Both the position numbers and the translations under genes were made by a program. Under the pieces are notes generated by a model that worked only from the letters and a program-made list of their open reading frames with translations, did no database searches and had not been told where the DNA came from. From Bacillota bacterium (GTDB taxonomy: Bacteria; Bacillota; UBA5301; JASBVW01): a stretch of DNA of 34,986 bases. The stretch covers positions 1 to 34,986 of the forward strand of contig JASBVW010000001.1 of the NCBI GenBank assembly GCA_029961005.1, in the 5' to 3' direction. This document shows, piece by piece, positions 13,373-33,743 of the stretch; position 1 is the first letter of the stretch; each line of letters starts with the position of its first letter.

Positions 13373-14476
13373 TCATGTACCTCTGCTCGCCTTCTCCAGT
13401 TCCTCCAGGCGTTTGCGCAGCTGGCGCAGCTCCTTCCATAACTCCGGCAGGCGGGCGGAGGCGGCCTTGATCCGCATCTCCTCGGCGTGCGGTCGGGCGG
13501 GAATGCCGAAGACGTGGGACCCCGGCGGCAAGCTGGAGGCCACCACGCTGGCTGCCGCCACTACGCAGTCGTCCCCTATTTCCAGGTGGTCCGCCACCCC
13601 GGCCTGGCCGGCCAGGATGACCCGGTCTCCCAGGCGCGCGCTGCCGGCCAAGCCGCACTGGGCCACGAGGAGGCAGTCCTCCCCCACTTGGACGTTGTGC
13701 CCGATCTGGACTAAGTTATCGATCTTGGTGCCCCGGCCGATGCGGGTGGCGCCGCAGGTGGCCCGGTCGATGGTGGTGTTGGCGCCGATCTCCACGTCGT
13801 CCTCCACCACTACCGTCCCGATCTGGGGGACTTTGCGGTGCTTCCCCTCCACGGTGACAAAGCCAAAACCGTCCGCCCCCAGGACGGCCCCGGCGTGGAT
13901 GATGACGTTGCGCCCCACCCGCACGCCCTCGCACAGCACGGCGTTGGCGTGAATGACGCTCCCCGCCCCCACGCGCACCCCCGGCCCGAGGTAGACCCCC
14001 GGGTAGATGACCACCCCGTCTCCCACCTCGGCTTCCGCCTCAATCACCACGTGGGCACCGATGGCCACCTCTTTCCCCAGCCGGGCCCGCGGGCTGATCA
14101 CCGCCGTAGGGTGAACGCCCACCGCCACGGGCGGGGGCGGGGCAAAGGCCGCCAAAACCCGGGCAAAGGCCAGGCGAGGGTTGTCCACCAAAAGCAGGGA
14201 CTTCTCCGTCACCCTCGGCCGGCCGGCCGCCTCGGCCTCCTTTTGTAACGCGGCGTAGTCGCTGCGGGCCAGGATAACCGCCCCCGCGCCCCCGGCGAGC
14301 GCCTCCCTCGCCCGCCGCAGATCGGCGGCAAAGGTGATCTCCGCCGGCCCCGCCTCAGCCAGGGGCGCCACCCCTCTAATGGTCAGATAGGGATCCCCCA
14401 CCAGCTCCCCCTCCGCCAGGGTAGCCAGCTCGGTGAGCTTCCTCGGTTCTCCGGACCTGCCCTCTGCGCGCTGCAT
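13373..14476 (-). CDS. lpxD: UDP-3-O-acylglucosamine N-acyltransferase LpxD
   Basis: The N-terminal uridine-binding domain ([30 protein letters not shown]) is followed by a long hexapeptide beta-helix ([32 protein letters not shown]) and a C-terminal helix. Confidence 0.92.
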
Positions 14477-14504: not shown

Positions 14505-14936
14505 CTACTTAAGCAGGGAGATGACCTCGTCAGTGATCTCCTCTCCGCCGTAGCGCACGCTCTCTTTAAACAAAACGGCCGTCAGCCTCCGGCGCCTGGC
14601 CACCTGCCTGACCGCCGCGTCCACCTCCCGGTTTAGCTTCTGCTCCAGCTGCTCCTTGAAGCGTTGATACTCGGCGTAGGCCGCCTCCCGCTTCCTCTGC
14701 AGCTCCTGCGGATCTTTTTCCTGCTTGAGAGCGGAGACCAGCTCCTCGTAACGCCGGTTCAACTGCTCCTGGTAGCGCTTGGCCCGAGCGCTTTCATTGA
14801 CGATCCGGCTGATGTCGATGACCCCCAGGCGCACCCGCTGAAAAGGCAGGTAGCCCAGGAGCCCTGCCAACAAAAGCACGGCCAGCACCGCCGTCGCAGC
14901 CGGCCACATCCACCTCTTCACTCCCGCGTTCTCCAT
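14505..14936 (-). CDS. skp: Skp/OmpH-family periplasmic chaperone, paralog 3 (closest to lpxD)
   Basis: 143 aa. A signal/anchor segment is followed by [13 protein letters not shown], a coiled-coil arm and the C-terminal [27 protein letters not shown]. All are typical of OmpH/Skp. Confidence 0.8.
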
Positions 14937-14967: not shown

Positions 14968-16053
14968 CTATGGCCGCCCAGCAGCTAGTATACCCATGAC
15001 CTCTCCGGTTATATCGAGAGCCCCCCGGGCTGCCACCGGGGAACCCAAGACGCAGGAGAGTTTCCGCCGCCGCGCGGCCTGAGCTGCCGCCGCTTTTACG
15101 TCCGCCCGCAGCTCCGCCTCCAGCGCCGCGGCGCGCCGGGACCACGGCGCGGGGCCGACCTGCTCAGGAGCCGGGCTGTAAAGAGGCCCCGCCAGCGGGG
15201 CGGGGGCCGCCTGCCCCCAGACCTCTTCCCGCCGCTCTTCTTCCTCTGCCAGCTCGGCCTCCAGCCGCCGCCGCTCCCGCTCCAGTTCCTCCCGGGCGCG
15301 GGCCTGCAGCCGGTCGGCATAAGAGCGGAGGTCCTTTTCTTGGGCCTCGCTCTGCTCCTTCCACCAGGAGCGGTATTCCTCCTCCAAAGCCCGCTCCTTC
15401 TGCTCCACCTTCTCCTGGAGCTGCCGCCGCAGAGCCTCCACTTCCTTCTGCAGGCGCTCCCGCTCCTGTTCCTGGAGGTCCGCCAGGGCAAGGCGCAGCT
15501 GCAGGTTCAAGAGCTGAACCGCCGCGGCGCGGTTCACCTCCTCCTGATACTTTTGGAGCTCTGCTTTGAGCTGCCACCGGCGCAAGCTGGCCTCCTGCTC
15601 CAGCTCGACCTCCATCTCTTGCCGCCGGGCCTCCACCTGGGCCTGGACGCGGCTCCAAAGCTGGGCCTCGCGGCTGGCCAGCTCTACCTGGAGTTGCTGC
15701 CTCCACTGCTCCAACCCCAACCGTCCCTGCTCCCGCAGCAGGGAAAGCTCCTGCTGGGCGGCTTCCTGCACACGCCGGGCGCGCTCCTCCGCCCGCGCCT
15801 CTGCTTCCCGCACCGCCGCGGCATGGGCCTCCTGCGCGCGCTCTTCCTGCTCGGCCTGCACCCGTAAAAAGGCCAGCTCGGGCCAGCGGGGGTGGGCCTG
15901 CAAGGCCCGTGAAACCTCCACCACCGCCACCCGCCCCTCTGCGAATTGCCCCGCATGGAGCCGCAGGGCCTGGCCGCCGTACCAACCCAGGGCCGAAGCC
16001 GCCCCCGCCACCAGCAACAGAGCGGGCGCCATCCAGTGCCTCATCTTACCCAC
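14968..16053 (-). CDS. Skp/OmpH-like protein with a greatly extended coiled-coil insert, paralog 2
   Basis: 361 aa with a signal peptide. It keeps the Skp-like edge strands (VAVVEVSRAL at the N-terminus and RRKLSCVLGSPVAARGALDITGEVMGIL at the C-terminus), separated by a helical region of about 250 aa rich in E/R/Q/A. Confidence 0.65.
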   Translation of the reverse strand: MGKMRHWMAPALLLVAGAASALGWYGGQALRLHAGQFAEGRVAVVEVSRALQAHPRWPELAFLRVQAEQEERAQEAHAAAVREAEARAEERARRVQEAAQQELSLLREQGRLGLEQWRQQLQVELASREAQLWSRVQAQVEARRQEMEVELEQEASLRRWQLKAELQKYQEEVNRAAAVQLLNLQLRLALADLQEQERERLQKEVEALRRQLQEKVEQKERALEEEYRSWWKEQSEAQEKDLRSYADRLQARAREELERERRRLEAELAEEEERREEVWGQAAPAPLAGPLYSPAPEQVGPAPWSRRAAALEAELRADVKAAAAQAARRRKLSCVLGSPVAARGALDITGEVMGILAAGRP

Positions 16054-16081: not shown

Positions 16082-16564
16082 CTATTTCTTCTCCTCCGCC
16101 TTCTTTCCTTCCGCCTGGGCCCGCTGCAAGACCAGCTCGGTGATGTCCTTCCCTCCGTAAAGCACCGCCTGCTGGTCCATCACCACTGCCAGCCCTTCCT
16201 GGCGAGCCACCGCTTCGATGGTGGCGAGGATCTTCTGGCGGGCCTGGCGCAAGAGGGCCTCCTTCTGGGCGTCCAGCCCGGCCTGGTACTGCTGAAACAG
16301 CTTCACCTTCTCCTCCTGGCTCAGGTTCTTGGACTTTTCGTCGTATTCTTTCTGCAGGCGCGCGGTCTCCTGCTCCAGGCTGGCCTGCACCTCTTTCATG
16401 GCCGGGAATTCGTTGAGCAGGCGCATCGTGTCTACCACGCCCACCTGGGACAGCTTGTCCGCCCGAGTAACCGAAAGGCTGGCCGCCAACGAGACCACCA
16501 GGGCCACCGCCGACACCGCAGCCAGCGCCAGGATGAACTGCCTTCGCTCATTGAGTTTCAACAT
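16082..16564 (-). CDS. skp: Skp/OmpH-family periplasmic chaperone, paralog 1
   Basis: 160 aa. A signal/anchor segment is followed by VGVVDTMRLLNEFPAMKE, a coiled coil and EGLAVVMDQQAVLYGGKDITELVLQ. Confidence 0.85.
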   Translation of the reverse strand: MLKLNERRQFILALAAVSAVALVVSLAASLSVTRADKLSQVGVVDTMRLLNEFPAMKEVQASLEQETARLQKEYDEKSKNLSQEEKVKLFQQYQAGLDAQKEALLRQARQKILATIEAVARQEGLAVVMDQQAVLYGGKDITELVLQRAQAEGKKAEEKK

Positions 16565-16616: not shown

Positions 16617-17996
16617 CTAAAGATTTCCCTGTACCCTCAGCCAAAAGCGGGCCCGGTCGTCGCCCACCAGCTCCACCGCCATGAACTCGTTCATTCTCAC
16701 CTCTATCCCCACCTCCATACCGCGGCCGGCGAAAGATCCGGAGCCATCCGCCGCCCCGCCGACGGCCACCCCGCCCAAGCCGGTGCTGATGTGTAAGGTC
16801 TCGCGGGGACCCAGCCGGTGCCTGATCTCCAGCCGGGAAAGCCGGGCGGCCGGGTCGTAGCTGAGGTCCAGCCTGGTGGTGGGCGGAAATTCCCAGCCCG
16901 CTCCCACCTGCCACTCCGCGTGGAGGTGGTTGAGGATGGTTCGGTTGGCCAGAAAGGCCTCGCCCCTCTCCCCGACCCGCCAGCCCAGGTGCCCTTCCAG
17001 GGAGGGGTCCGGGGCGCTCTGGCCGATATTCAGCACCGCCAGGAGAGAGAAGCGAAAGGCCGTGGAATCCAAGTCCAGCTCCAGGGCCGCTTCCGGAGCA
17101 GGGTTGATTTGCACCTTGGCCCTGAGGCCGTAGCGGCCCACCCCCGCTTTCTCTTCAATATACTGCTCCAGGGCCGCCGCCAGGTTCCGGCGATAGCGCT
17201 CTAGCAGCGGCACTGGAATCCCCTCCAGCAGCCGGGCCTGCTCCTCAATTTGGGGCTGGAGGCTGTGCACCACTACCCCGGGCAGGGTGGAGGAGCGCAG
17301 GAGAACCCTCACCCGCTGTACCACCGGCGGGTCCGGGGTCAGCCTGACCCGGAGCTTCACCTCTTCCCCCCACTCGCCGGCCACAGCCGCGCGGTAGCCG
17401 GGCAAGGCCTTGGCCGCTACTCCTTCCACCAGGGGAGCCAAGGCAAAACGGGCCCATTCCATAGCCTCCACCGGCGCCCCCACCACCAACTCCTCCACCT
17501 GTCCCTGGAGGGCGGCCAGCTCGCGGTCCAAAGCCGCCTGTAGCCTGGGATGGAGTCCGTCGACCTGCACCTGCAGCTCTACTTTCCGCACCCGCGGCCC
17601 CCGCGGCTTTAACTGAATGGTCAGGAGGGCCGTGCGGCCGGGCTCCAGGCGGACGGTCTGAACTTCAAACCCGCTCAAGACGCGGGTAAAGACCTCCTGA
17701 ATGGCTCTCTCCAACGGCCCCCGCAGGTACTGGACGTCGTCCACCTTCTGGTTCAAGAGGACGGCCTCCCCCACCACCCGCAGGCTGCTTTCTATGCGTT
17801 CCAGGAGGCCAAAGCGGGGCAGCCCGTCTTCGGCCAGCACCCGCACCGCCACAGACTGCACGCGCGGAGGCTCCGGCGCCGTTTCCCCAGCCTCTGCCGC
17901 CCGGGCGGCAGGTGCAGCGACAAGGAACCCGGCGAGGAGGAAGGCCCCTATCCGTCGCCGGGTGGCCCTGGCCCATGCGCGGAGGAGTCCAGGCAC
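16617..17996 (-). CDS. Secreted protein of unknown function, a putative outer-membrane protein
   Basis: 459 aa. The signal peptide is GAFLLAGFLVAAPAARA, followed by AEA. The N-terminal two-thirds are mixed alpha/beta. The C-terminal 150 aa or so show alternating hydrophobic patterns (FRFSLLAVLNIG, AEWQVGAGWEF, TRLDLSYD, RLEIRHRL, MEVGIEVRM, RFWLRVQGNL) suggesting amphipathic beta strands. I recognise no family. Confidence 0.6.
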   Translation of the reverse strand: MPGLLRAWARATRRRIGAFLLAGFLVAAPAARAAEAGETAPEPPRVQSVAVRVLAEDGLPRFGLLERIESSLRVVGEAVLLNQKVDDVQYLRGPLERAIQEVFTRVLSGFEVQTVRLEPGRTALLTIQLKPRGPRVRKVELQVQVDGLHPRLQAALDRELAALQGQVEELVVGAPVEAMEWARFALAPLVEGVAAKALPGYRAAVAGEWGEEVKLRVRLTPDPPVVQRVRVLLRSSTLPGVVVHSLQPQIEEQARLLEGIPVPLLERYRRNLAAALEQYIEEKAGVGRYGLRAKVQINPAPEAALELDLDSTAFRFSLLAVLNIGQSAPDPSLEGHLGWRVGERGEAFLANRTILNHLHAEWQVGAGWEFPPTTRLDLSYDPAARLSRLEIRHRLGPRETLHISTGLGGVAVGGAADGSGSFAGRGMEVGIEVRMNEFMAVELVGDDRARFWLRVQGNL

Positions 17997-18011
17997 TGAG
18001 GTTTACCCTCC

Positions 18012-19718
18012 CTAAAAGGCCTGCCCAAAGCTGAAGTAGGTCTGGGCCTGGCGCCCCGGTGCGCCAAAGCCGTGGTCGATCCTGATCACGCCCACCGGCG
18101 TATCCACGCGCACCCCGAGGCCGAAGTTGGAGACCATCTCGTCCAGGCGCAGGGGCTCGTCCCTCTTCCAAGCTTTGCCCAGGTCGAAAAAGACCGCTCC
18201 CTGCAAGTTTTGGACGATCCAGAAGCGGTACTCCGCGTTCAAGACCAGCTTCTTGTCCCCGACGAAGTAGTTGAGGGGATACCCCCGGAGGGTATCGGAT
18301 CCGCCCACGGAGAAGAGCTCATGGGGCGGCACCGACTCGCCGGTGATGAGACCGGCGTCGAGGTGCAGGGCCACCGTCTGGCCGGCCCACCCCGCCTTGT
18401 AGTACTGGCTGAGGTCCACCTCGTATTTGTTGAAGATCCAGTCGCTGCCCAGAAACTGAGGGGCAAACTCCGCCGAGACCGAGCGCCGGCCGCCGGAGGT
18501 GGGGCGCAGGATGAAGTCCCGGGTGTCGTTGACCACGGAGAAGGTCAAGCTGCGGGTCTTGCCGTACTGAAAGTCCGGGTTCACGTAGCCCTCGTACCTG
18601 GTATCCTCCACGGTCAGGCGCCCGGAGACCCGGGTGAAGTCGTCCAGCCGCCGCCCCAAGGTGACGTCGCCCCCCGCTTCGTATTGGTTGTACGTGTTTC
18701 CGTACTCGTCCACCCGATTGAGCAGCCGCCGGTTGTAGAGATTGAACCCGCCGAAGGTCCCCCGGTCGTCCAGGTAGGGCTCAAAGAACCCCAGTTCCCA
18801 GGTGTTCTTGTTCTTTCCAAATTCCCAGCGCACGTTGACCCGCTGGCCGCGGCCCAGGAAGTTTTCGTCCGCCACCTCCAGGTAACCCACCAGGCCATCG
18901 CTGGAGCTCCAGCCGGCGCCGGCGGCCGCCGTGCCTGTCTTGCGCTCCTTCACCTCGATGGTGAGGTCGGTGACGTCGGGGTCGCTCGTCTCGCTGAACT
19001 TGCGGGAGACCTCATCAAAGAAACCCAGGTTGGCCACGCGGCGCAGGTCCGCCTGGAGCTTCTTCAGGTCCAGGACCTCCCCGGGTCGGGTCCTGATCTC
19101 CCGCCGGATCACGTAGTCCTTGGTCTTTTGGTTGCCGGTGATCTCGATCTTGCCCACGCGGGTCTCCGCCAAGACGATCTTCACGATCCCCGCGTCGGTA
19201 ATGGCCACGTCTTTGATCCGGGCCGGGATCCCGTACTCTTGAAAGCCCTTGTCCAGAAAGCGCTTCAACCCTTCCTGGAGCTTGTTGAGGTTGAGGATCT
19301 CCCCTACGGCAATGCCCAGTTCCCCCTTGAGCTGCTCGACCGGGAAGAGGGAGCCGCCGGTGATCTCGATGCCCTTGACGATGGGATTCTCCACCACCGC
19401 GAAGACCACCTTGGCTCCGCCCGGCTGCTCGCTCAGCCGGGCCCGGACGTCAAAGAAATAGCCCAGATCGTGGATGGCCTGCAGGTCCTTCTTCAGCGCT
19501 TCCTCGCTCACCGGCTGCCCGACCTTGGTCTCCTTGACCGCCTCCAGGATGACGTCCGCCGGTACGTAGTGATTTCCTTCCACGGCGATTTCGGTCGCTA
19601 TGGGGTTGGCTCCCCGCGCGGGCGGGACACCCCACCCCAAAAGAAACAGACCGGCTACCGCGAGCAACAAGACGCTTGGTGCTGCGACAGTCCGCATGCG
19701 CTGCTGCAAGTAGTTCAC
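18012..19718 (-). CDS. bamA: Outer membrane protein assembly factor BamA (Omp85 family), apparently with three POTRA domains
   Basis: 568 aa with a signal peptide. POTRA-like repeats span roughly residues 40-260 (IAVEGNHYVPADVI, IEITGGSLFP, IEITGNQKTKDYVIRREI). The Omp85 barrel carries the RGY motif (GGSDTLRGYP), VRIDHGFG, and ends in FSFGQAF. The start is a GTG after GAGGAGG. Confidence 0.92.
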   Translation of the reverse strand: MNYLQQRMRTVAAPSVLLLAVAGLFLLGWGVPPARGANPIATEIAVEGNHYVPADVILEAVKETKVGQPVSEEALKKDLQAIHDLGYFFDVRARLSEQPGGAKVVFAVVENPIVKGIEITGGSLFPVEQLKGELGIAVGEILNLNKLQEGLKRFLDKGFQEYGIPARIKDVAITDAGIVKIVLAETRVGKIEITGNQKTKDYVIRREIRTRPGEVLDLKKLQADLRRVANLGFFDEVSRKFSETSDPDVTDLTIEVKERKTGTAAAGAGWSSSDGLVGYLEVADENFLGRGQRVNVRWEFGKNKNTWELGFFEPYLDDRGTFGGFNLYNRRLLNRVDEYGNTYNQYEAGGDVTLGRRLDDFTRVSGRLTVEDTRYEGYVNPDFQYGKTRSLTFSVVNDTRDFILRPTSGGRRSVSAEFAPQFLGSDWIFNKYEVDLSQYYKAGWAGQTVALHLDAGLITGESVPPHELFSVGGSDTLRGYPLNYFVGDKKLVLNAEYRFWIVQNLQGAVFFDLGKAWKRDEPLRLDEMVSNFGLGVRVDTPVGVIRIDHGFGAPGRQAQTYFSFGQAF

Positions 19719-19796: not shown

Positions 19797-20507
19797 CTAC
19801 GGGTGTCCGGCTGAGCCGCGCAAAGAATCAGAGGCCAGTTTGACCAGCTGGTTGAGATCTAACTCGATCTGGGGAGCCGGCCGGTCAGCCTCGGCTGCGG
19901 CGGCTGCCGGATCGGCCGCCGCCGGAGCAGCCGCGGCCGGCGCCACAGGCTCCGCGAGCGCCGGGGTCGGGCCGCCACCGGTCACCCCGTCCGCCCCTTT
20001 AACCTCCTCGGCCGCACTCAATTCTCCGCCTCCGGCAGCGGTGGAGGCAGCGAGGGGCGCGGTCGGCACGGCCTCAGCCCCCACCGGCCGTACAGCCGCC
20101 ACTGCCTTGGGCCGCGGAGCAGGGGCCGGAGGCTGCTCCCGCGGCGCCGGCGCTGCAGGAGCAGGAGTCACGGCCGCCACGGGGGTCGGCAAAACCGGGG
20201 CCGCAGCCGGCTGGGCCAGCCACCCGAGCACCGCCAGGGCCACCGCCAGAAGACCGCCCCCCCAGGCCGCCGCCCGGAAGAGGCGCCCCCGGGGCCGGGC
20301 GTCCGCCCTGCCGGGCAAAGCCCAGGCCTGCCGGCGCACGGACCTGCCCTGCCGGCTCATCTCCCAAGCGCGGCGCACCTCCCCCAGAACCAGGGAGAGG
20401 GTCAACTCGCCCCGCACCGGATTATCTTTGCTGAACTCCTGCTCGGCCTGCTCCAGCCACTGCCTGGCAAAGCGCAGATGCCGCACCACCCCGTGCTTTT
20501 CACCCAT
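19797..20507 (-). CDS. Single-pass membrane protein with an Ala/Pro-rich ectodomain, a candidate anti-sigma or regulatory partner of the upstream sigma factor
   Basis: 236 aa. A helical cytoplasmic N-terminus of about 55 aa is followed by one TM (WGGGLLAVALAVLGWLA) and then a low-complexity A/P-rich tail. The start lies 14 nt after the sigma gene stop. No zinc-finger (HxxxCxxC) anti-sigma motif is present. Confidence 0.5.
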   Translation of the reverse strand: MGEKHGVVRHLRFARQWLEQAEQEFSKDNPVRGELTLSLVLGEVRRAWEMSRQGRSVRRQAWALPGRADARPRGRLFRAAAWGGGLLAVALAVLGWLAQPAAAPVLPTPVAAVTPAPAAPAPREQPPAPAPRPKAVAAVRPVGAEAVPTAPLAASTAAGGGELSAAEEVKGADGVTGGGPTPALAEPVAPAAAAPAAADPAAAAAEADRPAPQIELDLNQLVKLASDSLRGSAGHP

Positions 20508-20521
20508 CGCTCCACCCTCCT

Positions 20522-21172
20522 TTACACCCGTGCCAGATCAGGCAGCTCCCGAGCCAGCATGCCGCGCAGGCGCCGAATGGCCCTGCGCTGGAGCCGGTAG
20601 AGGTATGAGGTGGTAATGTTGAGCTGGGAAGCAATGCGGGAAGGCTCCTGCTCGGCTACATAGACGCCGTTGACCACCGCCTGCTCCTTCTCCGGCAGGC
20701 GATGCACCAGCCGGGCCAGGGTACGCCTGAGTTCCCACCTCTCCAACTGCTCCTGCGGCTCGGAGGTATAGCCCTCGCCGCCCACCGCCAGCTCGCCTGC
20801 CCAGGCCGGTGAAGACTCCTCCCAGGAGAGGGGAGCCGGTTCTCCGCGGACCTCCCGGAGGTAGTCCAGGATGTAGCCGCGGATCCACCGGCGGGCGTAG
20901 GCGCTAAACGGAACCCCGCGCCGGTGGTCAAACCGCTCCACCGCTTCAATCAGCCCGACAGTCCCTTCCTGGATCAGATCCAGCACAAAATGCTCTTCCA
21001 AGCCGTAGTTGCGGGACGCCACCAGCTTGAGCACCAGGGACTGATAGAACTCGATCAGGAGGCGCCGGGCCTCCAGGTCGCCCTCTTCTTTATAGCGCGA
21101 CCACAGCTCCTGCTCCTCCTCTGGAACCAGGGGCTTCACCTGTCGCAGCGCTTCTAGGTATTCCTTGAGCAT
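20522..21172 (-). CDS. Sigma-70 family RNA polymerase sigma factor, group 3 / FliA-SigF-like, with a short region 3
   Basis: Region 2 reads DLIQEGTVGLIEAVERFDHRRGVPFSAYARRWIRGYILDYLRE. The region 4 helix-turn-helix reads PSRIASQLNITTSYLYRLQRRAIRRLR. I prefer the ATG at 21172 (MLKEYLE). The ORF track starts at a GTG at 21256. Confidence 0.8.
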   Translation of the reverse strand: MLKEYLEALRQVKPLVPEEEQELWSRYKEEGDLEARRLLIEFYQSLVLKLVASRNYGLEEHFVLDLIQEGTVGLIEAVERFDHRRGVPFSAYARRWIRGYILDYLREVRGEPAPLSWEESSPAWAGELAVGGEGYTSEPQEQLERWELRRTLARLVHRLPEKEQAVVNGVYVAEQEPSRIASQLNITTSYLYRLQRRAIRRLRGMLARELPDLARV

Positions 21173-21262
21173 AAGCCCCACCGTTGGAGTTCTTCGACTG
21201 TTCCAGGGCAATTCCTTCCGCTCTCCCACAACAATTCGTGACAGAGCGGCCACCACTTGGGA

Positions 21263-24200
21263 TTAGAACCTGAGCTTGCCCTCCAAACCCAGCCAGACCT
21301 CACCCCGGCTGTCGAATCCGCTGGTGAAGACCACTCCCGGCTTCAAGCGGTATTCGAAGCGCAAGGACTCGTCTGGTTTTTCCAGGTTTAAACTGCGGCT
21401 GTAGGTGACGTACAGGTCGTCGACCAGGTACTTGCCGAACTGCATCTGCACCTGCTCCTCGGCAAAGCCCCGCTCCAGCCTGAATTCGTCCAACTGAAGC
21501 ACATCCCGCACCGCATGCTCCAACCCTTTAAAGACGGTGCCGCGGATCTCCTCATCCAGGAGGCTCAGCATCTCCTGGCCGGTGACCTCCCCCGCCTCGC
21601 CGCCCCGGAGCAGGCGGGAGATCCTCCCCGTCAGAGCCAACCGCTCCAGAATCTCCTCCTCCGAAAGCGGAGGGTCGGAAGAGAGCTGCAGGTCGAGCTC
21701 CGGCACCTGGCCGGAGATGCGCAAGCCGATGAGGGCATCCTCCGCCCTGGCCTGAGCCTTGACTTCCAGCTGAGGATTTATGCCGTGCAGCGAGGTAAAG
21801 ACCGCCGAACCCTCGCTCACCCGGAAGACGGTGCCCAAATAGACGATGACGCCGCGGGTGGCCTCCGCCCGCCCCGCTAGGGTGGGCTCCCTGAGGGTCC
21901 CGCCGATCTTCAGCCGGCCGTAGGCCCGCACATCCACGCTCTCGCCGCCCACGATCCGGACGTCGTCGGCATTGGTCAATTCCACGTCCAGAGCGGCGTC
22001 GAGCGGAGAGTGGCCCCCTCCCAGGTGGCCGCCCAGGTTAAGGGTGGTCCTGGCCAGCTGCACCCTTCCCTGCAAGAGAGGGAGGTTCGCCGGCCCGCGC
22101 AGGGAGAGATCGGCATCGATCAGGCCGTCCAGGAAGGAATCGGAGTAGTGCAGATCCTCGGCCTGGAGGTACAGGTCCACCTCCTGCACCGCCAGGCCTC
22201 TCAGGGTCAGGATGCCCCTCCCGGCAGCCGTACCCTCGTTTACCTGCGCGCTGGCGCGCTCGATCACCACCTGGTGGCCGCGGAAGAGCAGGCGCCCTTC
22301 CCCCTCCGCCACCGTAAAAGGAGGGGCGGAGAGAGAGAGCTGCTCGAACTGGAAAGCGCCGTAGACCCCCACCTCATCCCAAGGGCCGATTAGGCGCAGG
22401 TTCAGGGCACCGCGCCCCTCCTGAATGGCCTGGCGCCCCCAGGCCAAATTGAGGATCTTCAAGCTCCCCCGCGGCAGCGAGACGGTCAAATCCACCGGTG
22501 TAGCCGCCGCCCCGGCGGCGACGCTCAGGCGCTCCGCCAGTGCGGGGGGAAGAGGAATCCTCCCCTCCACCTGGAGGAGCTGGCCGTCCGCAGCCACCTG
22601 TAGCCCTTCCAGCTCCACCGCTCCCTCCGCCAGGCGCACCGTCCCCTCCGCGCGCTGGAAGGGGACCTCACCCATGCGCCCGTCCTCCAGGTCGAAGGAG
22701 CCCTCCAGGCAGGGGGAGACCGCCGACCCCGTGATCCTAGCCTGTCCGCTCAACTTCCCCTCGAGCGGGAAAGCAGGGTCCCACATCCTCAGCACGGACT
22801 CTACCGCAAAGGACTCTGCGGCGACGGAAAGATCCAGTGCGCCGGCGGTACTCCAAGTTCCGCGGGCCGAAAGGCTCCCTCCCCCCTTTTGCACCACTAA
22901 GAACCTCTCCAGGGAGACGCGCTCGCCCTCCATCTCCATAGCCAGGGCAGCGGTCAGGTCCCCTTCCCCCCGGCGCCCCTCCGCCGCCAGCAGGTTCACC
23001 CTCACCCGGGGGTGGGAGGCGCGCCCGGTCAGCCAGGCGGTGCCGTCGCAGAGCGCTTCCACCCCCGCCGGGGGCCGTTGATCGGCGATCTTGAGCAACT
23101 CCGAAAGCCTGGCTCGCCTGAACTCCACCTTGACTTCGAAGGCCGGGTCCGGCTGAAGGGCCAGCTCCCCATTCAGGGTGTACTCTTCCTGGCCCCGCTG
23201 GAGCCGCAGCCCGGTGAGGTACAAGCGCCCGCCTCTGTATTCCACCGGTCCGGCTGCGCGGTCCAAAAGATAGGGGCCCAGCACCAGGCTCTGGGCTTTG
23301 ACCTCCCCGCCCAGGTGAGGGTCTTTGAGCGTCCCCGAGAGGCGGCCGGTAAACTCCACCGTGCCCGCCGCCCGGCCCAGGCTGGCCGCCAGTTGCGGAA
23401 AAGCCGCCAGTTGGACCTGCTCTATCCGGAGGTCGATGGCCAGCTCCTCCCCCTGGATCGTGCCGCTGCCGTAGCCGCTGCCCAGGGGGCTTTCGATGGT
23501 AAAGGAATCCAGGAGAATTTCCCTCCCGCGCCCTTTGAACTGGATTTCGGCCCGCCGGAAGTCCTGGCCGGCCACCCGGCCTTTCGCTACCGACACCTTC
23601 CCCTCCAGAGCAGGCGCGGAGAGCGGGCCATGGAGGGCCACCTGCCCGTAGGCTTCCCCCTTGAGATCCCAGGAGACCCCGGCCAGGCGCAGGAGATCGG
23701 CTATCTCACCCCTTTCCACCTCCCCGGTCAGGCGAGCCACGGGCCCGGCCGCCTCGAAGAGCAGTTCCCCCTCCAGCCGGTAGGCGGAGCTTCCGTGCAG
23801 AATCGCCACCTGTTCCAGCTCCAGCCGGGGCCGCTGCCACCGGAGATAACCCTCGGCCCGTTCAAAGGTCCGATCCCGCCAGGCGGCTTCAGCGACCCCG
23901 AACCAGCCGGAGACCGCCGGGTCGGCCAGGGAACCCTCGACGCGCCCGTGAAAGCGCAGGCGCCCTCTCACCTCGCCGGCGCCCGCCCTGCCGCGCCACT
24001 CCTCCGGCAAAAGCGGCCAGAGCTCCGCCAGGTCGACCTGGCGGAGGTCCACCGCCAGCGCCAGCTCTCCCTCCGGGGAGACCTCGCCCGAAGCTACAGC
24101 CACAGCACCCCGCCGGAAGACTTTGAGCTCGTTGAAGTGCCAGACGCCCCCTGCCAGCATAAAGCCGGCCTCCAGCCGGTCTGCTTTCCAATTCCGGAAC

Positions 24201-24475
24201 GAAGGCCCTTGCACCGCCAGGTCTCCGGTGAGCCGGACCTGCTCTCGTCCCCACCCTCGCCCGGACCCGACCAGCCGGCCCTCCAGGAGCCCTTCGCACT
24301 GAGGAACCCCGGCCAGTCCGGCGTCCCGGAGGGCGCGGGAGAGGGTGGCCAGATCCACCCTCTGCACCCGGAGGACCCCCGCAAAGGCCCAGGGGTTCCC
24401 CCGGCCGCCCACCACCCCTTCCCCGGTGGCGTCACCGGCTGGGCCGCGGACGGCCAGGCGGCGGACGGTCCACAC
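21263..24475 (-). CDS. tamB: TamB-like translocation and assembly module protein, C-terminal 1070-aa portion (DUF490 end)
   Basis: Long repetitive beta-rich sequence. The C-terminal DUF490-like segment is QFGKYLVDDLYVTYSRSL...FEYRLKPGVVFTSGFDSRGEVWLGLEGKLRF, ending in Phe. This frame opens only 8 codons upstream of the nominal GTG at 24475. Confidence 0.8.
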   Translation of the reverse strand: MWTVRRLAVRGPAGDATGEGVVGGRGNPWAFAGVLRVQRVDLATLSRALRDAGLAGVPQCEGLLEGRLVGSGRGWGREQVRLTGDLAVQGPSFRNWKADRLEAGFMLAGGVWHFNELKVFRRGAVAVASGEVSPEGELALAVDLRQVDLAELWPLLPEEWRGRAGAGEVRGRLRFHGRVEGSLADPAVSGWFGVAEAAWRDRTFERAEGYLRWQRPRLELEQVAILHGSSAYRLEGELLFEAAGPVARLTGEVERGEIADLLRLAGVSWDLKGEAYGQVALHGPLSAPALEGKVSVAKGRVAGQDFRRAEIQFKGRGREILLDSFTIESPLGSGYGSGTIQGEELAIDLRIEQVQLAAFPQLAASLGRAAGTVEFTGRLSGTLKDPHLGGEVKAQSLVLGPYLLDRAAGPVEYRGGRLYLTGLRLQRGQEEYTLNGELALQPDPAFEVKVEFRRARLSELLKIADQRPPAGVEALCDGTAWLTGRASHPRVRVNLLAAEGRRGEGDLTAALAMEMEGERVSLERFLVVQKGGGSLSARGTWSTAGALDLSVAAESFAVESVLRMWDPAFPLEGKLSGQARITGSAVSPCLEGSFDLEDGRMGEVPFQRAEGTVRLAEGAVELEGLQVAADGQLLQVEGRIPLPPALAERLSVAAGAAATPVDLTVSLPRGSLKILNLAWGRQAIQEGRGALNLRLIGPWDEVGVYGAFQFEQLSLSAPPFTVAEGEGRLLFRGHQVVIERASAQVNEGTAAGRGILTLRGLAVQEVDLYLQAEDLHYSDSFLDGLIDADLSLRGPANLPLLQGRVQLARTTLNLGGHLGGGHSPLDAALDVELTNADDVRIVGGESVDVRAYGRLKIGGTLREPTLAGRAEATRGVIVYLGTVFRVSEGSAVFTSLHGINPQLEVKAQARAEDALIGLRISGQVPELDLQLSSDPPLSEEEILERLALTGRISRLLRGGEAGEVTGQEMLSLLDEEIRGTVFKGLEHAVRDVLQLDEFRLERGFAEEQVQMQFGKYLVDDLYVTYSRSLNLEKPDESLRFEYRLKPGVVFTSGFDSRGEVWLGLEGKLRF

Positions 24476-25698
24476 CCCGCATACTCGACCGCTGCCTCAG
24501 CCTGTCGCCAGGGCAGGCCGAAGAGCTCCCTTCCCTCCCAGGTCAGGGAGCCGCTAAGCACGAGATCGTCCACCGGCCCGCTCGCCAACCCGTGCAGAGT
24601 CAAGCGGCCGTCTGTCTTGCGCCAGCCGACCCGCAGCGCCTCAGGCCACTCTGGCCGCGGGAAGAGAGCTTGCACCGCCCTCGACCGCAAGGAGACCCCT
24701 GCCAGCTGCAGGCGCACCGCCAGGCGCGGGCGCTCCCAACCGGCCAGCTCTCCGCTCAGGCGGCCCTGGCCTTCCGCCCACCGGAAGCGCAGCCCCTTCG
24801 TGCTGATCTTTTCCCCGGCCACCTCCACCTGGCCGGTTAAATCTTCCAGGCGCACCCCCCGGTTCAGCGAGAGCGCCACCCCGTTCAGGCGGGCCAAACC
24901 GACCACCAGGGGTTGTTTAGGCTCCCCCTTCACCTCCACCTCCAGGTCGACGACGCCCCGGGGCTTCAGGCCGGACCACCATCCTCGCCACTGGGGCGGA
25001 AGAGGCAGGCGCTCCCCGGCGGACAGGTCGAGGGAGGGCAGGCGGAGGCGCAGGTCGAGGAGAGGCCGGGGCGCCGGGACGATCTTCCCCTCCAGGGCCC
25101 AGGGAGACTTCCCCTCCCGCCAGCGCCCCTCCAGCCAGGCTACGCGCCAGGAATGCCCGTCCAGCTGCATGCGGCCCCGTATCCCCTCTAGGTGCACGAC
25201 CTCCCCGCCTTCCCCGCTGAACGACGCCTTTCCTCGCAAAAGGTTGAGCCAAAGGCGCAGGTTACCCCTCCCGCCCGCCTCGGCCGAGAAGCGGGCGGAA
25301 AGTTGCGCTGCCTCCTGAGCCGAAAGGTTCAGTTCTGGATCCCATACGGAGATGTAGGTGAGAGCAGCCTCCGGGTGTCCGGGGTGAGTGAGCAGCCTCC
25401 ACAAGCTGTACCCCAGCTCCACCCGCGGCGCAGCAAAGAACGGCGGACGACCGGCTGCCGTCGAGCCCAGCGTGAGGTGGCGCAGCACCACGACCTGAAA
25501 GAGCCCGGGTTCTACCCCCTCTACCTTGACCGGCAGCCCTAAGGCCCGCGTGAGCTCGCGCGAGGCCAGGGCGGCCAGATCCATCCGGCTCTGCTCTCGA
25601 CTCGCCAGGCCAAGAAGGAGATGGGAGGCGGCAGCGAAGAAGAGGAAGGCCAGCCCCAGGAGGGACGCCGCCATGAAGATTCGCACCCTTGTTCGCAC
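24094..25698 (-). CDS. tamB: TamB-like N-terminal portion (membrane anchor plus about 400 aa); the 3' 380 nt look like out-of-frame read-through
   Basis: The GTG at 25698 follows GAGGAGG. The N-terminal TM is IFMAASLLGLAFLFFAAASHLL. The sequence looks like a real protein down to about 24479 (AEAAVEYAG), then turns W/G/S/P/R-rich while the overlapping frame (21263..24475) reads as a real protein. Confidence 0.7.
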   Translation of the reverse strand: MRTRVRIFMAASLLGLAFLFFAAASHLLLGLASREQSRMDLAALASRELTRALGLPVKVEGVEPGLFQVVVLRHLTLGSTAAGRPPFFAAPRVELGYSLWRLLTHPGHPEAALTYISVWDPELNLSAQEAAQLSARFSAEAGGRGNLRLWLNLLRGKASFSGEGGEVVHLEGIRGRMQLDGHSWRVAWLEGRWREGKSPWALEGKIVPAPRPLLDLRLRLPSLDLSAGERLPLPPQWRGWWSGLKPRGVVDLEVEVKGEPKQPLVVGLARLNGVALSLNRGVRLEDLTGQVEVAGEKISTKGLRFRWAEGQGRLSGELAGWERPRLAVRLQLAGVSLRSRAVQALFPRPEWPEALRVGWRKTDGRLTLHGLASGPVDDLVLSGSLTWEGRELFGLPWRQAEAAVEYAGCGPSAAWPSAAQPVTPPGKGWWAAGGTPGPLRGSSGCRGWIWPPSPAPSGTPDWPGFLSAKGSWRAGWSGPGEGGDESRSGSPETWRCKGLRSGIGKQTGWRPALCWQGASGTSTSSKSSGGVLWL

Positions 25699-32954: not shown

Positions 32955-33743
32955 CTACCGCCGCAGGTTATTGGCCAGCTGCAGCATCTCATCGGAGGCC
33001 TGAATGGCCTTGGCATTAACCTCGTAGGCCCGCTGGGCCACGATCATGTTCACCATCTCTTCCACTACCTGAACGTTGGACATCTCCAGGTAGCCCTGGG
33101 CGATGGTTCCGAACCCGTCCAGGCCCGGCGTCCCGTCGATGGGCTCTCCCGAGGCAGGGGTGGCCCGCAAGAGGTTGCGCCCTTCAGAGCTGAGCCCGGC
33201 CGGATTGATGAAGCGCGTGAGCTGGATCTGCCCGATCTCCTGGGGCTCGTTCTGCCCGGGGAGCATGACCGTCACCGTGCCGTCGGTGCCCACGGAGATG
33301 TGCGTCGCCTCGGGCGGGATGATGATCTCCGGTTCCAGCGGGAAACCATCAGAGGTCACGATGCGCCCCTCTGCATCCACCTTAAAGGACCCATCCCGGG
33401 TGTAGGCGACCTCGCCATCCGGCATGAGGATGCGGAAGAAACCGTCCCCCTCGATCACCATGTCCAGGGGGTTGTCCGAGGGGCGCACATCGCCTTCGGT
33501 GAAGATCTTCTGGGTGGCCACCGGGCGGACGCCATGGCCCAGCTGAATGCCGGTGGGAATCATCAGGCCCCGCACGGCCGGAGTTCCCGCCGCCCGATAG
33601 GTCTGGTACAAAAGGTCCTGAAAGTCCACGCGGCTCTTCTTGAACCCCACGGTATTTACGTTGGCCAGGTTGTTGGAGATGACGTCGATCATGAGCTGCT
33701 GCGCCTTCATCCCCGACCCGGCCGTCCACAACGCCGGCATCAT
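32955..33743 (-). CDS. flgG: Flagellar distal rod protein FlgG
   Basis: The N-terminus reads [29 protein letters not shown]. The C-terminus reads [45 protein letters not shown]. Confidence 0.93.

What the first reader, a model, noticed from the sequence alone, without database searches (positions are those of the whole stretch)
16617..17996. Unassigned 459-aa secreted protein between bamA and the skp genes, with a putative C-terminal beta-barrel
What the sequence shows:
- A clear signal peptide.
- About 300 aa of mixed alpha/beta sequence with internally similar segments (RVQSVAVRVL..., VQTVRLEPGRTALLTIQL, VRKVELQVQV, VKLRVRLTP, VQRVRVLLRS).
- A C-terminal region of about 150 aa of short alternating hydrophobic/polar runs, ending in RFWLRVQGNL.
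- The gene starts 15 nt after the bamA stop and is followed by three skp genes.

Established knowledge: in classical diderms skp directly follows bamA, and the proteobacterial BAM lipoproteins BamB-E are lineage-restricted.

Inference: this could be a lineage-specific BAM partner, or an outer-membrane protein with periplasmic POTRA-like modules. I recognise no family.
Basis: partly seen in the sequence, partly recalled or inferred. Interest (0 to 1): 0.7.

Follow-up and report, generated by a model that had tools for sequence, protein, structure and literature searches.

The report
SonA-type POTRA mini-barrel beside bamA
The unassigned gene between bamA and skp encodes a divergent member of SonA, an outer-membrane protein family (three POTRA-like domains plus a 10-stranded barrel) first named in 2026 in Negativicutes, so it is real and conserved but belongs to a known kind whose function is still unknown.

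Summary
Window 16617-17996 (minus strand) is a 459-aa ORF that starts 15 nt after bamA. It has a signal-peptide-like N-terminus, three repeated alpha/beta units and a beta-rich C-terminus.

It has no Pfam, NCBIfam or PDB sequence match. An exhaustive HMMER search nevertheless found a family of 191 cluster representatives. One of them is Acetonema longum F7NM22, the protein named SonA in Nat Commun 2026 (PMC13018214). That hit scored E 1e-28, and the two are reciprocal best hits between the two loci.

An AlphaFold2 model (pLDDT 85.5) shows three beta-alpha-alpha-beta-beta POTRA-like domains and 10 C-terminal strands, the architecture published for SonA. The gene order tamB-sigma-sonB-bamA-sonA-skp-X-skp-lpxD matches A. 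longum.

The host is an unclassified Bacillota MAG outside the Negativicutes that the paper surveyed. This is therefore a new, divergent member (26% identity) of a known kind.

"BAM partner" remains unproven, because co-IP in A. longum found no stable partner.

One new lead emerged. SonA co-occurs almost perfectly with a sigma-70-family gene and with SonB, an anti-sigma-like single-pass membrane protein. This suggests a possible envelope-signalling role.

The parts
16617..17996 (-). sonA homologue CDS, 459 aa, including the stop codon at 16617-16619
   Evidence: The ORF is listed. The family HMM hits only this ORF in the window, at E 1.9e-146. It matches A. longum SonA F7NM22 by BLASTP at E 8e-36 and is the reciprocal best hit between the loci.
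18006..18012 (-). Shine-Dalgarno GGGAGGG, 9 nt upstream of the GTG start; it overlaps the last base of the bamA stop codon
   Evidence: Read from the upstream sequence. It supports the 459-aa start over NCBI's 414-aa call.
17898..17996 (-). Predicted Sec-type signal peptide, aa 1-33 (Arg-rich n-region, hydrophobic core at 16-30, A-R-A at 31-33)
   Evidence: Based on the sequence and hydropathy. It is conserved in P0002, and all family members have N-terminal hydrophobic segments. This is heuristic; no dedicated predictor was run.
17598..17861 (-). POTRA-like domain 1, aa 46-133 (beta48-55, helices 64-80 and 85-106, beta110-118, beta122-131)
   Evidence: AF2 DSSP, with pLDDT about 80-92. The conserved motif VFDRVLxGYxV lies here.
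17328..17597 (-). POTRA-like domain 2, aa 134-223 (beta138-145, helices 150-171 and 176-197, beta201-208, beta212-221)
   Evidence: AF2 DSSP. The invariant W181 and the GxPV motif lie here.
17061..17327 (-). POTRA-like domain 3, aa 224-312 (beta228-234, helices 240-257 and 262-283, beta291-298, beta302-311)
   Evidence: AF2 DSSP. The invariant P239 and P261 and the motif LxGLPVAF lie here.
16620..17060 (-). C-terminal 10-stranded beta-barrel region, aa 313-459. Loops are 3-7 residues long, except for one 19-residue Gly-rich loop (408-426) present only in this protein and P0002 among the 25 aligned. The region ends in the conserved motif FWLRVQGNL.
   Evidence: AF2 predicts 10 strands between 314 and 458. 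Nine of 10 strands alternate hydrophobic and polar faces.
18012..19718 (-). bamA, 568 aa, three POTRA domains plus an Omp85 barrel
   Evidence: Pfam Omp85 at 4e-40 and POTRA at 3e-36; TIGR03303 at 3e-82.
19797..20507 (-). sonB homologue, 236 aa. It has an N-terminal helical motif, one TM helix (about aa 79-98), a Pro/Ala-rich linker and a conserved C-terminal motif LVKLASDSLRG. It contains no cysteine.
   Evidence: BLASTP against the A. longum gene upstream of bamA (the F7NM24 position) gives E 1e-13. The SonB HMM gives 9e-71. The architecture is shown.
20522..21256 (-). Sigma-70-family factor, 244 aa (regions 2 and 4), directly upstream of sonB
   Evidence: Pfam Sigma70_r2 at 5.6e-16 and r4 at 6e-6. 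TIGR02937 at 3e-28 is the only NCBIfam model above its cut-off.
21263..25674 (-). tamB, split by a frameshift near 24478-24484
   Evidence: Pfam TamB at 2e-43. tblastn with the 1467-aa TamB of L001 hits aa 1-398 in frame -1 and aa 398-1467 in frame -3.
16082..16564 (-). skp (OmpH), 160 aa, immediately downstream of sonA
   Evidence: Pfam OmpH at 6.5e-17.
14968..16053 (-). 361-aa Glu/Arg/Gln-rich ORF between the two skp genes, with no family hit
   Evidence: No Pfam or NCBIfam hit. A protein of 319-416 aa occupies this position in five other loci, and it carries a faint OmpH hit in L007 and L008.
14505..14936 (-). Second skp (OmpH), 143 aa
   Evidence: Pfam OmpH at 2.2e-11.
13373..14476 (-). 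lpxD, the start of the lipid A genes in the cluster
   Evidence: Pfam LpxD and Hexapep. Downstream are LpxC, FabZ, LpxA, LpxI and LpxB.

Best explanation
**Identity.** The gene encodes an orthologue of SonA, the family named in Acetonema longum in 2026.

**Shown or predicted here.**
- It is a Sec-exported outer-membrane protein with no cysteines, so it is not a lipoprotein.
- Its C-terminal ~145 residues are predicted to form a small 10-stranded beta-barrel with very short loops.
- Its N-terminal ~265 mature residues form three tandem POTRA-like (beta-alpha-alpha-beta-beta) domains that would hang into the periplasm.
- It is tightly packed with tamB, a sigma-70-family gene, sonB, bamA, skp and the lipid A genes, all on one strand. 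The gaps I measured (tamB-sigma, sigma-sonB, sonB-bamA and bamA-sonA) are 6-78 nt.

**Inferred.** SonA is an outer-membrane-biogenesis factor. Its barrel anchors it in the outer membrane. Its POTRA-like arm binds unfolded beta-barrel substrates or envelope partners (BamA, TamB, Skp or the SonB C-terminus), as POTRA domains do in Omp85 proteins. It acts transiently rather than as a stable BAM subunit. Its exact biochemical activity is unknown.

**Confidence.** The figure of 0.8 covers family identity, architecture and a general role in outer-membrane biogenesis. Identity alone is about 0.9. The specific POTRA-binding mechanism is about 0.5.
For: **Homology.**
- The profile search of 1.84 billion representatives gave 191 hits (138 below 1e-10), most of them 420-440 aa.
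- One hit, P0052, is UniRef100_F7NM22 / WP_004097360.1 of A. longum, at E 9.9e-29.
- BLASTP gives 26% identity over 367 aa, E 8e-36.
- The two are reciprocal best tblastn hits between the two loci.

**Architecture.**
- The AF2 model built on a 25-sequence alignment has pLDDT 85.5 and pTM 0.67. It shows three beta-alpha-alpha-beta-beta units and 10 C-terminal strands.
- The top 50 Foldseek PDB hits are all BamA, TamA or Toc75, at E about 1e-12 to 1e-9.
- Barrel strands alternate hydrophobic and polar faces.

**Synteny.**
- The order sigma-sonB-bamA-sonA-skp is the same in the window, A. longum, Anoxybacter fermentans and several metagenomic relatives.
- SonA sits directly after bamA in 55 of 71 bamA loci that have adequate flanks.

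**Published experiments.** In A. longum, SonA is co-expressed with BamA and SonB and is up-regulated during germination. The recombinant protein inserts into liposomes and becomes trypsin-protected.
Against: - **No function has been shown for any SonA.**
- **No stable BamA partner was found.** Anti-BamA co-IP with cross-linking in A. longum recovered none.
- **POTRA and barrel assignments rest on prediction.** Neither Pfam POTRA nor Omp85 matches the protein. Profile-profile comparison with BamA finds nothing (probability 2%). Foldseek TM-scores are low (0.15-0.22), so the resemblance is local rather than a rigid-body match.
- **SonA is dispensable in some diderms.** It is absent next to bamA in Atribacterota, Orenia, Megamonas and Limnochordales loci, and the paper reports it absent from V. 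parvula and Acidaminococcus fermentans.
- **The signal peptide is a heuristic call.**
Confidence: 0.8

Rival explanations
1. **Envelope-signalling sensor.** SonA would be the outer-membrane end of a three-part module made of SonA, SonB and the adjacent sigma-70-family factor. SonB would hold the sigma with its cytoplasmic N-terminal helical domain, acting as an anti-sigma factor. It would reach SonA's POTRA arm through its long Pro/Ala-rich periplasmic linker and conserved C-terminal motif. Disturbance of outer-membrane or OMP assembly would release the sigma and tune transcription of the bamA-skp-lpx cluster. This overlaps with the best explanation rather than excluding it.
For: **Co-occurrence.** Among bamA loci with adequate flanks, plus the window and L089-L091, the counts are:
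- SonA with sigma and SonB: 54
- SonA without them: 3
- neither: 18
- sigma and SonB without SonA: 0
.

**Joint absence in separate lineages.** All three are missing together in Megamonas (L042), Orenia (L048), Limnochordales (L089, L090) and Atribacterota. Related lineages (Anoxybacter, L091) carry all three.

**SonB architecture across 58 homologues.** There is no signal peptide. A conserved ~55-aa N-terminal helical motif is followed by one TM helix, a low-complexity linker and a conserved C-terminal motif. This is the layout of single-pass anti-sigma factors. Many members have no cysteine, so SonB is not a lipoprotein family-wide.

**Position.** In the window, sonB starts 14 nt after the sigma gene.
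Against: - No anti-sigma domain is detected in SonB by Pfam, NCBIfam or a PDB profile search.
- No interaction was tested.
- The co-occurrence counts are not phylogenetically independent, because most SonA-positive loci are Negativicutes.
- Three SonA-positive loci lack sigma and SonB nearby (L002, L044, L080).
- In Negativicutes a gap of 74-360 nt (about 130-300 nt in most loci) separates the sigma gene from sonB, which is unlike typical coupled sigma/anti-sigma pairs.
- The SonA paper does not mention the sigma factor.
Confidence: 0.2
2. **Stable BAM subunit.** SonA would be a stoichiometric accessory subunit of the BAM complex in diderm Bacillota, replacing BamB-E.
For: - SonA sits immediately downstream of bamA in every family locus examined.
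- Diderm Firmicutes lack BamB-E (PMC5007114; PMC13018214).
- SonA is co-expressed with BamA.
Against: [quoted passage not shown]
- SonA is missing from many diderm Bacillota and Atribacterota that have very similar bamA-skp-lpxD clusters, so BamA works without it.
- It is not a lipoprotein, because it has no cysteine (sequence).
Confidence: 0.12
3. **Unrelated small OMP.** SonA would be an ordinary small porin, tether or adhesin whose position next to bamA has no functional meaning. For example, it could stand in for the OmpM genes found in the same cluster in Negativicutes and Halanaerobiales.
For: - A 10-stranded barrel with short loops is a common small-OMP format.
- Other structural OMP genes, such as OmpM, lie in this cluster in other diderm Firmicutes (PMC5007114).
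Against: - There is no SLH, OmpA-like or other peptidoglycan-binding domain.
- The position is fixed across lineages whose SonA proteins are only 22-36% identical to this one.
- Three POTRA-like domains are otherwise characteristic of protein-transport or assembly OMPs (Foldseek hits).
Confidence: 0.05
4. **Soluble enzyme or periplasmic protein.** NCBI names some Selenomonadaceae homologues 'acylphosphatase'. NCBI's 414-aa call for this gene lacks a signal peptide.
For: - The name 'acylphosphatase' appears on MBO6178839.1 and MBR3723460.1.
- NCBI's start at V46 removes the signal peptide.
Against: - No acylphosphatase or other enzyme family matches P0158, A. longum SonA or the window protein, even at E up to 10.
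- The RBS and N-terminal conservation favour the long form.
- A beta-barrel region with lipid-facing hydrophobic stripes is predicted.
- Liposome insertion has been published for SonA.
Confidence: 0.02

Closest known systems
SonA of Acetonema longum (UniProt F7NM22; Nat Commun 2026, PMC13018214)
   Same: - The two are homologous: E 1e-28 in the full library and 8e-36 pairwise, and they are reciprocal best hits between the loci.
- Both have a signal peptide, three POTRA-like domains and a 10-stranded barrel.
- Both sit between bamA and skp1, with sonB upstream of bamA and the same wider cluster order.
   Different: - Identity is only 26%.
- This protein is 459 aa against 426 aa. It has a longer N-terminus and a 19-residue Gly-rich loop insertion (aa 408-426) that, among the 25 aligned members, is shared only with its closest relative P0002.
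- The host is an unclassified high-GC (about 66%) Bacillota MAG, not a Negativicute.
- Here sigma, sonB and bamA are packed with gaps of 14-78 nt. In Negativicutes a 74-360 nt gap (mostly 130-300 nt) lies before sonB, and in Sporomusaceae/Pelosinus-type loci that gap carries a conserved element.
BamA / TamA (Omp85 superfamily, PF01103 plus PF07244)
   Same: - The overall design is the same: periplasmic tandem POTRA-type beta-alpha-alpha-beta-beta domains followed by a C-terminal outer-membrane barrel.
- They are the best structural matches in the PDB.
- They are encoded in the same operon.
   Different: - SonA has 10 strands rather than 16.
- It has no Omp85 or POTRA Pfam match.
- Profile-profile comparison finds no similarity.
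- Global TM-scores are only 0.15-0.22.
- SonA is therefore 'built like' an Omp85 protein but is not a demonstrable member.
OmpM (SLH domain plus 16-stranded porin) of diderm Firmicutes
   Same: It is an OMP gene located in the same outer-membrane cluster in Negativicutes and Halanaerobiales (PMC5007114).
   Different: SonA has no SLH domain, no coiled-coil stalk and no porin-sized barrel.
Cell-surface signalling trios such as FecA-FecR-FecI, or the sigmaE-RseA envelope-stress system (from my own knowledge of those systems)
   Same: - The gene neighbourhood pairs a sigma-70-family factor with a single-pass membrane protein that has a cytoplasmic N-terminus and a long periplasmic extension, plus an outer-membrane barrel protein.
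- The three genes are present or absent together.
   Different: - SonA is not a TonB-dependent transducer.
- SonB has no recognisable anti-sigma, FecR or RseA domain.
- No signalling has been shown. This is a resemblance of layout only.

Membership tests
SonA (A. longum F7NM22 family) | Significant full-length sequence similarity to F7NM22 | tested here: met
   hmmsearch gives E 9.9e-29 over query 43-403. P0052 was identified as F7NM22. BLASTP gives 26% identity over 367 aa, E 8e-36. The two are reciprocal best hits between the loci.
SonA (A. longum F7NM22 family) | Three N-terminal POTRA domains (beta-alpha-alpha-beta-beta) plus a 10-stranded C-terminal beta-barrel | tested here: met
   The AF2 model has pLDDT 85.5 and shows three beta-alpha-alpha-beta-beta units and 10 strands. 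This is prediction only, and barrel closure was not verifiable.
SonA (A. longum F7NM22 family) | Gene order sonB-bamA-sonA-skp1 | tested here: met
   The window order is shown. The sonB homologue matches at E 1e-13. The A. longum locus L008 has the same order.
SonA (A. longum F7NM22 family) | Sec (SPI) signal peptide | tested here: inconclusive
   The N-terminus has a typical n-region, h-region and AXA layout and is conserved. No signal-peptide predictor was available, and NCBI's gene call omits this region.
SonA (A. longum F7NM22 family) | Outer-membrane localisation, co-expression with BamA, and spontaneous insertion into liposomes | not testable with these tools
   Reported only for A. longum SonA.
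Omp85 / BamA-TamA superfamily | 16-stranded Omp85 barrel domain (PF01103) detectable by sequence | tested here: not met
   There is no PF01103 hit even at E up to 10. hhalign of the SonA profile against the BamA profile gives probability 2%. Ten strands are predicted.
Omp85 / BamA-TamA superfamily | POTRA domains | tested here: inconclusive
   At the fold level the feature is present: three beta-alpha-alpha-beta-beta units, and the top Foldseek hits are BamA and TamA at E about 1e-12. At the sequence level it is absent: there is no PF07244 hit. TM-scores are at most 0.22.
OmpM (outer-membrane tether and porin) | N-terminal SLH domain and a 16-stranded porin barrel | tested here: not met
   None of the 25 family members has an SLH or other Pfam hit. 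Ten strands are predicted.
BAM accessory lipoproteins (BamB-E type) | Lipobox cysteine and lipoprotein signal peptide; stable association with BamA | tested here: not met
   The protein contains no cysteine (sequence). Stable association is not testable here, and co-IP in A. longum was negative.

The most novel reading that the evidence does not exclude
SonA, SonB and the adjacent sigma-70-family factor may form a previously unrecognised trans-envelope signalling module of diderm Bacillota. In this reading:
- SonA is a POTRA-bearing mini-barrel in the outer membrane that reports on OMP or outer-membrane assembly.
- SonB is not a lipoprotein. It is a single-pass, anti-sigma-like inner-membrane protein whose Pro-rich linker spans the periplasm.
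- The sigma factor is held by SonB and, when released, sets expression of the bamA-skp-lipid A cluster.

The evidence does not exclude this reading. It would explain why the three genes are present or absent together around bamA (54 loci with all three, 18 with none, 0 with sigma and SonB only, 3 with SonA only).
Probability: 0.2. Interest if true: 0.75.

Novelty: new member of a known kind. Interest (0 to 1): 0.4.

Why it matters
Diderm Firmicutes lack BamB-E, the Lol pathway and TamA, so how they build an outer membrane is an open problem. SonA is one of very few candidate lineage-specific factors, and it was named only in 2026.

This window adds three things:
- **The family reaches beyond the surveyed class.** It occurs in an unclassified high-GC Bacillota lineage and in Anoxybacter (Halanaerobiales), both outside the 36 Negativicutes surveyed.
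- **The family is unmodelled and mis-annotated.** It has no model in Pfam or NCBIfam. Public annotation truncates this gene and mislabels some homologues as 'acylphosphatase'.
- **There is a testable regulatory lead.** SonA travels with a dedicated sigma factor and an anti-sigma-like SonB. This gives a concrete hypothesis for a protein whose function is otherwise unknown.

For the scan itself, the finding is a correct call on a real but already-named family.

Tried and rejected
**Searches that gave nothing**
- Pfam, NCBIfam and PDB sequence searches of the protein and of 25 relatives found nothing.
- The word-indexed protein search found only the protein itself and one close relative. Repeated with the 25-sequence family alignment, it returned just three proteins.
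- The search for related loci with the family alignment failed because no stretch was conserved enough. I scanned genomes with a BamA alignment instead.
- hhalign of the SonA profile against BamA, both as a single sequence and as a 7-sequence profile, showed no similarity. Descent from Omp85 therefore cannot be claimed.
- A profile search of the PDB with SonB returned only a non-significant VirB10 hit (E 0.59).

**Steps that could not be run**
- I considered fusing BamA and SonA, or sigma and SonB, for a pseudo-multimer prediction. I dropped the idea because the tool returns neither PAE nor coordinates, so an interface could not be judged.

**Interpretations considered and rejected**
- OmpM: no SLH domain.
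- BamB-E-like lipoprotein: no cysteine.
- TamA or TpsB: no Omp85 match, and 10 strands rather than 16.
- Tat export: the TRRR in the n-region is not conserved in the family.
- Acylphosphatase: no model supports it.

**Other**
- A weak second tblastn hit of A. longum SonA inside a flagellar rod gene (33108-33347, E 3e-4) was judged spurious.
Full report
**1. The observation**

The ORF at 16617-17996 on the minus strand encodes 459 aa from a GTG start. A GGGAGGG ribosome-binding site lies 9 nt upstream and overlaps the last base of the bamA stop codon.

The window is about 66% GC, with a consistent negative GC skew. All the genes assigned below lie on the minus strand.

NCBI's annotation of this MAG ("Bacillota bacterium", QJR13_00080) starts the protein at V46, giving 414 aa and removing the signal-peptide-like N-terminus. 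Three things favour the long form:
- the ribosome-binding site;
- an 81%-identical homologue, P0002, that conserves all 459 residues;
- comparable N-terminal hydrophobic segments in all 25 aligned relatives.

The N-terminus has an Arg-rich n-region, a hydrophobic core (residues 16-30) and an A-R-A motif at 31-33. No dedicated predictor was available, so the signal peptide is a heuristic call. The protein contains no cysteine, so it is not a lipoprotein.

**2. Context**

On the minus strand the window carries a diderm-Firmicute outer-membrane cluster. The gene order is:
- flagellar rod genes, FlgH and FlgI, followed by further ORFs (two with Pfam hits, three without);
- TamB, a sigma-70-family factor and a 236-aa unknown protein;
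- BamA, then the target gene;
- Skp (160 aa), a 361-aa Glu/Arg/Gln-rich protein with no family hit, and Skp (143 aa);
- LpxD and a 795-aa unknown protein;
- LpxC, FabZ, LpxA, LpxI, LpxB and, further along, an ABC transporter with a fused transmembrane domain.

The middle gene has no family hit here, and only a faint OmpH hit at the same position in other genomes.

**3. A real family with no database model**

Pfam, NCBIfam and PDB sequence searches find nothing for the protein. Pfam also finds nothing for any of 25 relatives.

An exhaustive profile search of 1.84 billion cluster representatives found 191 hits below E 1e-3 and 138 below 1e-10. Most are 420-440 aa.

The alignment (A2) is collinear over the full length. 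Conserved motifs include VFDRVLxGYxV, LxGxPVxAxxWA, RSxSxPxxLL, LxGLPVAF and a C-terminal WLRLxGNL/F.

**4. Identification as SonA**

A literature search surfaced Nat Commun 2026;17:2756 (PMC13018214). The paper makes these points:
- It names two uncharacterised proteins of the A. longum bamA operon. [quoted passage not shown] SonB is F7NM24.
- It reports the order sonB-bamA-sonA-skp1 as syntenic across 36 Negativicutes. V. parvula and Acidaminococcus fermentans lack both genes.
- SonA is co-expressed with BamA and up-regulated in germination.
- Recombinant SonA inserts into liposomes.
- Anti-BamA co-IP detected no stable partner.

Hit P0052 from my search is exactly UniRef100_F7NM22 / WP_004097360.1. 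It scored E 9.9e-29. Pairwise BLASTP gives 26% identity over 367 aa, E 8e-36. Between the window and the A. longum locus, the two proteins are reciprocal best hits.

The A. longum locus (L008) reads TamB, sigma, a 186-aa protein (SonB), BamA, SonA, Skp, a 319-aa protein, Skp, LpxD. This is collinear with the window. The window's 236-aa ORF (19797-20507) matches the A. longum SonB-position protein at E 1e-13.

**5. Structure**

AlphaFold2 on alignment A2 gave mean pLDDT 85.5 and pTM 0.67. The DSSP assignment shows:

| Element | Residues |
|---|---|
| POTRA-like unit 1 (beta-alpha-alpha-beta-beta) | 46-133 |
| POTRA-like unit 2 | 134-223 |
| POTRA-like unit 3 | 224-312 |
| Ten beta strands | 314-458 |

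- Nine of the ten C-terminal strands alternate a hydrophobic face with a polar or charged face. Loops are 3-7 residues long, apart from one 19-residue Gly-rich, low-confidence loop. Among the 25 aligned members, that loop is present only in this protein and its closest relative.
- The 50 best Foldseek matches in the PDB are all BamA, TamA or Toc75 (E 3e-12 to 8e-9, probability 1.0). TM-scores are only 0.15-0.22 with rmsd above 19 Å.
- The similarity is therefore local. That is expected for a flexible multi-domain protein with a smaller barrel, but it is not a rigid-body match.
- Profile-profile comparison of the SonA family with BamA finds nothing. SonA is built like a small Omp85 protein but cannot be filed in that superfamily by sequence.
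- I could not inspect coordinates, so barrel closure rests on the strand count, the alternation pattern and the published description and liposome data.

**6. Distribution and linkage**

Starting from family members, the gene lies directly after bamA in every locus fetched:
- L001, the close relative;
- L002, L003, L005 and L007;
- L006, Anoxybacter fermentans, placed in Halanaerobiales incertae sedis;
- L008, A. longum.

Starting from bamA, a scan of GTDB species genomes returned 80 loci. A SonA HMM found a full-length hit immediately downstream of bamA in the great majority of the Negativicute loci. It found none in the Atribacterota loci, Orenia metallireducens, Megamonas hypermegale or a few unclassified MAGs.

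The window's BamA is 55% identical to BamAs of other unclassified Bacillota MAGs. It is 39-43% identical to Limnochordales, Limnochordaceae and Anoxybacter BamAs. The 55% relative (L091) has the full sigma-SonB-BamA-SonA set. Two Limnochordales-type MAGs (L089, L090) have a plain bamA-skp-lpxD arrangement without any of the three.

The host is therefore an unclassified Bacillota lineage, not a Negativicute. The paper's text mentions neither Halanaerobiales nor Limnochordia. This gene extends the family's documented range.

**7. Mechanism**

*Shown or predicted here:* a Sec-type N-terminus, three POTRA-like domains, a small barrel, and tight packing with tamB, sigma, sonB, bamA, skp and the lipid A genes.

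*Published for the A. longum orthologue:* co-expression with BamA and spontaneous membrane insertion.

*Inferred:* SonA is an outer-membrane-anchored biogenesis factor whose POTRA arm binds unfolded substrates or envelope partners.

The A. longum co-IP was negative. SonA is also absent from many diderms whose clusters are otherwise nearly identical.

**8. A lead not in the paper**

The paper never mentions the sigma factor and calls SonB a predicted outer-membrane lipoprotein.

Across 58 SonB homologues I find a different architecture:
- There is no N-terminal signal peptide.
- A conserved ~55-residue helical motif (HLRSARQWLxxAExSF...RGELDLxLAxAEL) is followed by one TM helix.
- A low-complexity Pro/Ala/Gln-rich linker follows, then a conserved C-terminal motif (EMxKLVRAAGKSLRGQ).
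- Many members, including the window's, have no cysteine at all.

This is the layout of a single-pass, N-in, anti-sigma-like protein. It sits right after a sigma-70-family gene, 14 nt away in the window.

I scored bamA loci that had adequate flanks, then added the window and L089-L091:

| Locus content | Count |
|---|---|
| SonA with sigma and SonB | 54 |
| SonA without sigma or SonB (L002, L044, L080) | 3 |
| None of the three | 18 |
| Sigma and SonB without SonA | 0 |

- These counts are not phylogenetically independent.
- Even so, all three genes are jointly absent from several separate lineages: Megamonas, Orenia, Limnochordales-type MAGs and Atribacterota. By the paper's account, V. parvula and Acidaminococcus fermentans lack both SonA and SonB.
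- This motivates the rival, and partly overlapping, hypothesis that SonA is the outer-membrane end of a sigma/anti-sigma signalling module.
- Against it: SonB has no recognisable anti-sigma domain, and no interaction could be tested.

**9. Verdict**

- The interpretation [quoted passage not shown] is supported.
- The gene is a divergent new member of the recently named SonA family, not a new kind of system.
- Its interest lies mainly in the still-unknown function of SonA and in the sigma-SonB-SonA association.

Noticed in passing
window 19797-20507 (-), with the homologous SonB genes in L001, L005-L011 and about 50 other loci: The SonB homologue is not a lipoprotein. It has no signal peptide and no cysteine in the window or in many relatives. 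Its architecture is a conserved N-terminal helical motif, one TM helix, a Pro/Ala-rich linker and a conserved C-terminal motif (LVKLASDSLRG here). This is an anti-sigma-like layout, and it differs from the 'predicted OM lipoprotein' label in PMC13018214.
   Followed up: partly
window 20522-21256 (-), with the equivalent genes in 50+ loci: A sigma-70-family gene (regions 2 and 4; only the generic TIGR02937 model passes its cut-off) sits between tamB and sonB. It is present whenever sonB is, wherever the upstream flank is complete. Sigma plus SonB never occur at bamA without SonA (54 loci with all three, 18 with none, 3 with SonA only, 0 with sigma and SonB only). The SonA/SonB paper does not mention this sigma factor.
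   Followed up: partly
window about 24478-24484, within tamB (21263-25674, -): tamB is split by a frameshift. Residues 1-398 of the close relative's 1467-aa TamB align in frame -1, and residues 398-1467 align in frame -3. This is either a pseudogene or a MAG assembly error.
   Followed up: partly
window 16617-17996 (-), NCBI protein QJR13_00080: The public annotation starts the protein at V46 (414 aa), cutting off the signal peptide. The RBS and homologue conservation support the 459-aa form.
   Followed up: yes
P0158 / P0159 (MBO6178839.1, MBR3723460.1; Selenomonadaceae MAGs): NCBI names these SonA-family homologues 'acylphosphatase'. No Pfam or NCBIfam model supports that name, even at E up to 10. 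It is probably a mis-annotation.
   Followed up: yes
L009, L013-L016, L018, L020, L022-L026, L028-L030, L032, L033 and L040, about 30-70 nt upstream of sonB: Sporomusaceae/Pelosinus-type loci carry a conserved element, GACCAGAATCTGGCC (containing the inverted repeat CCAGA-N-TCTGG), followed by GACTATATA. It occurs just upstream of sonB in each of these loci; L026 alone has a second, weaker match elsewhere. A GAYTATATA box recurs upstream of sonB across many Negativicute loci. It is a candidate promoter or operator for the sonB-bamA-sonA-skp operon. It is absent from the window, where sigma and sonB are 14 nt apart.
   Followed up: partly
window 14968-16053 (-): A 361-aa Glu/Arg/Gln/Ala-rich protein with no family hit lies between the two skp genes. 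A protein of 319-416 aa holds the same position in A. longum, Anoxybacter and other loci, sometimes with a faint OmpH hit. It may be an elongated Skp-like protein.
   Followed up: no
window 10927-13314 (-): A 795-aa protein with no Pfam hit lies downstream of lpxD. Positional equivalents (779-803 aa, also with no Pfam hit) sit after the lpxD region and directly before an ABC ATPase gene in L001 and A. longum L008. This is a conserved unknown of the outer-membrane cluster.
   Followed up: no
L002 (ENA ERZ21869602), L044, L080: Three loci have SonA after bamA but no tamB, sigma or sonB in the upstream sequence fetched. Their SonA proteins form a distinct subgroup ending in WLRFxANL (the P0027/P0082/P0125 type). 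The host taxonomy is unknown, and they may lie outside the classical diderm Firmicutes.
   Followed up: no
L012, L021 (a Limnochordia MAG), L031, L034: These loci carry two tandem Omp85-family genes of about 580 aa, followed by small ORFs and no SonA. They may hold a BamA paralogue pair in a different context.
   Followed up: no
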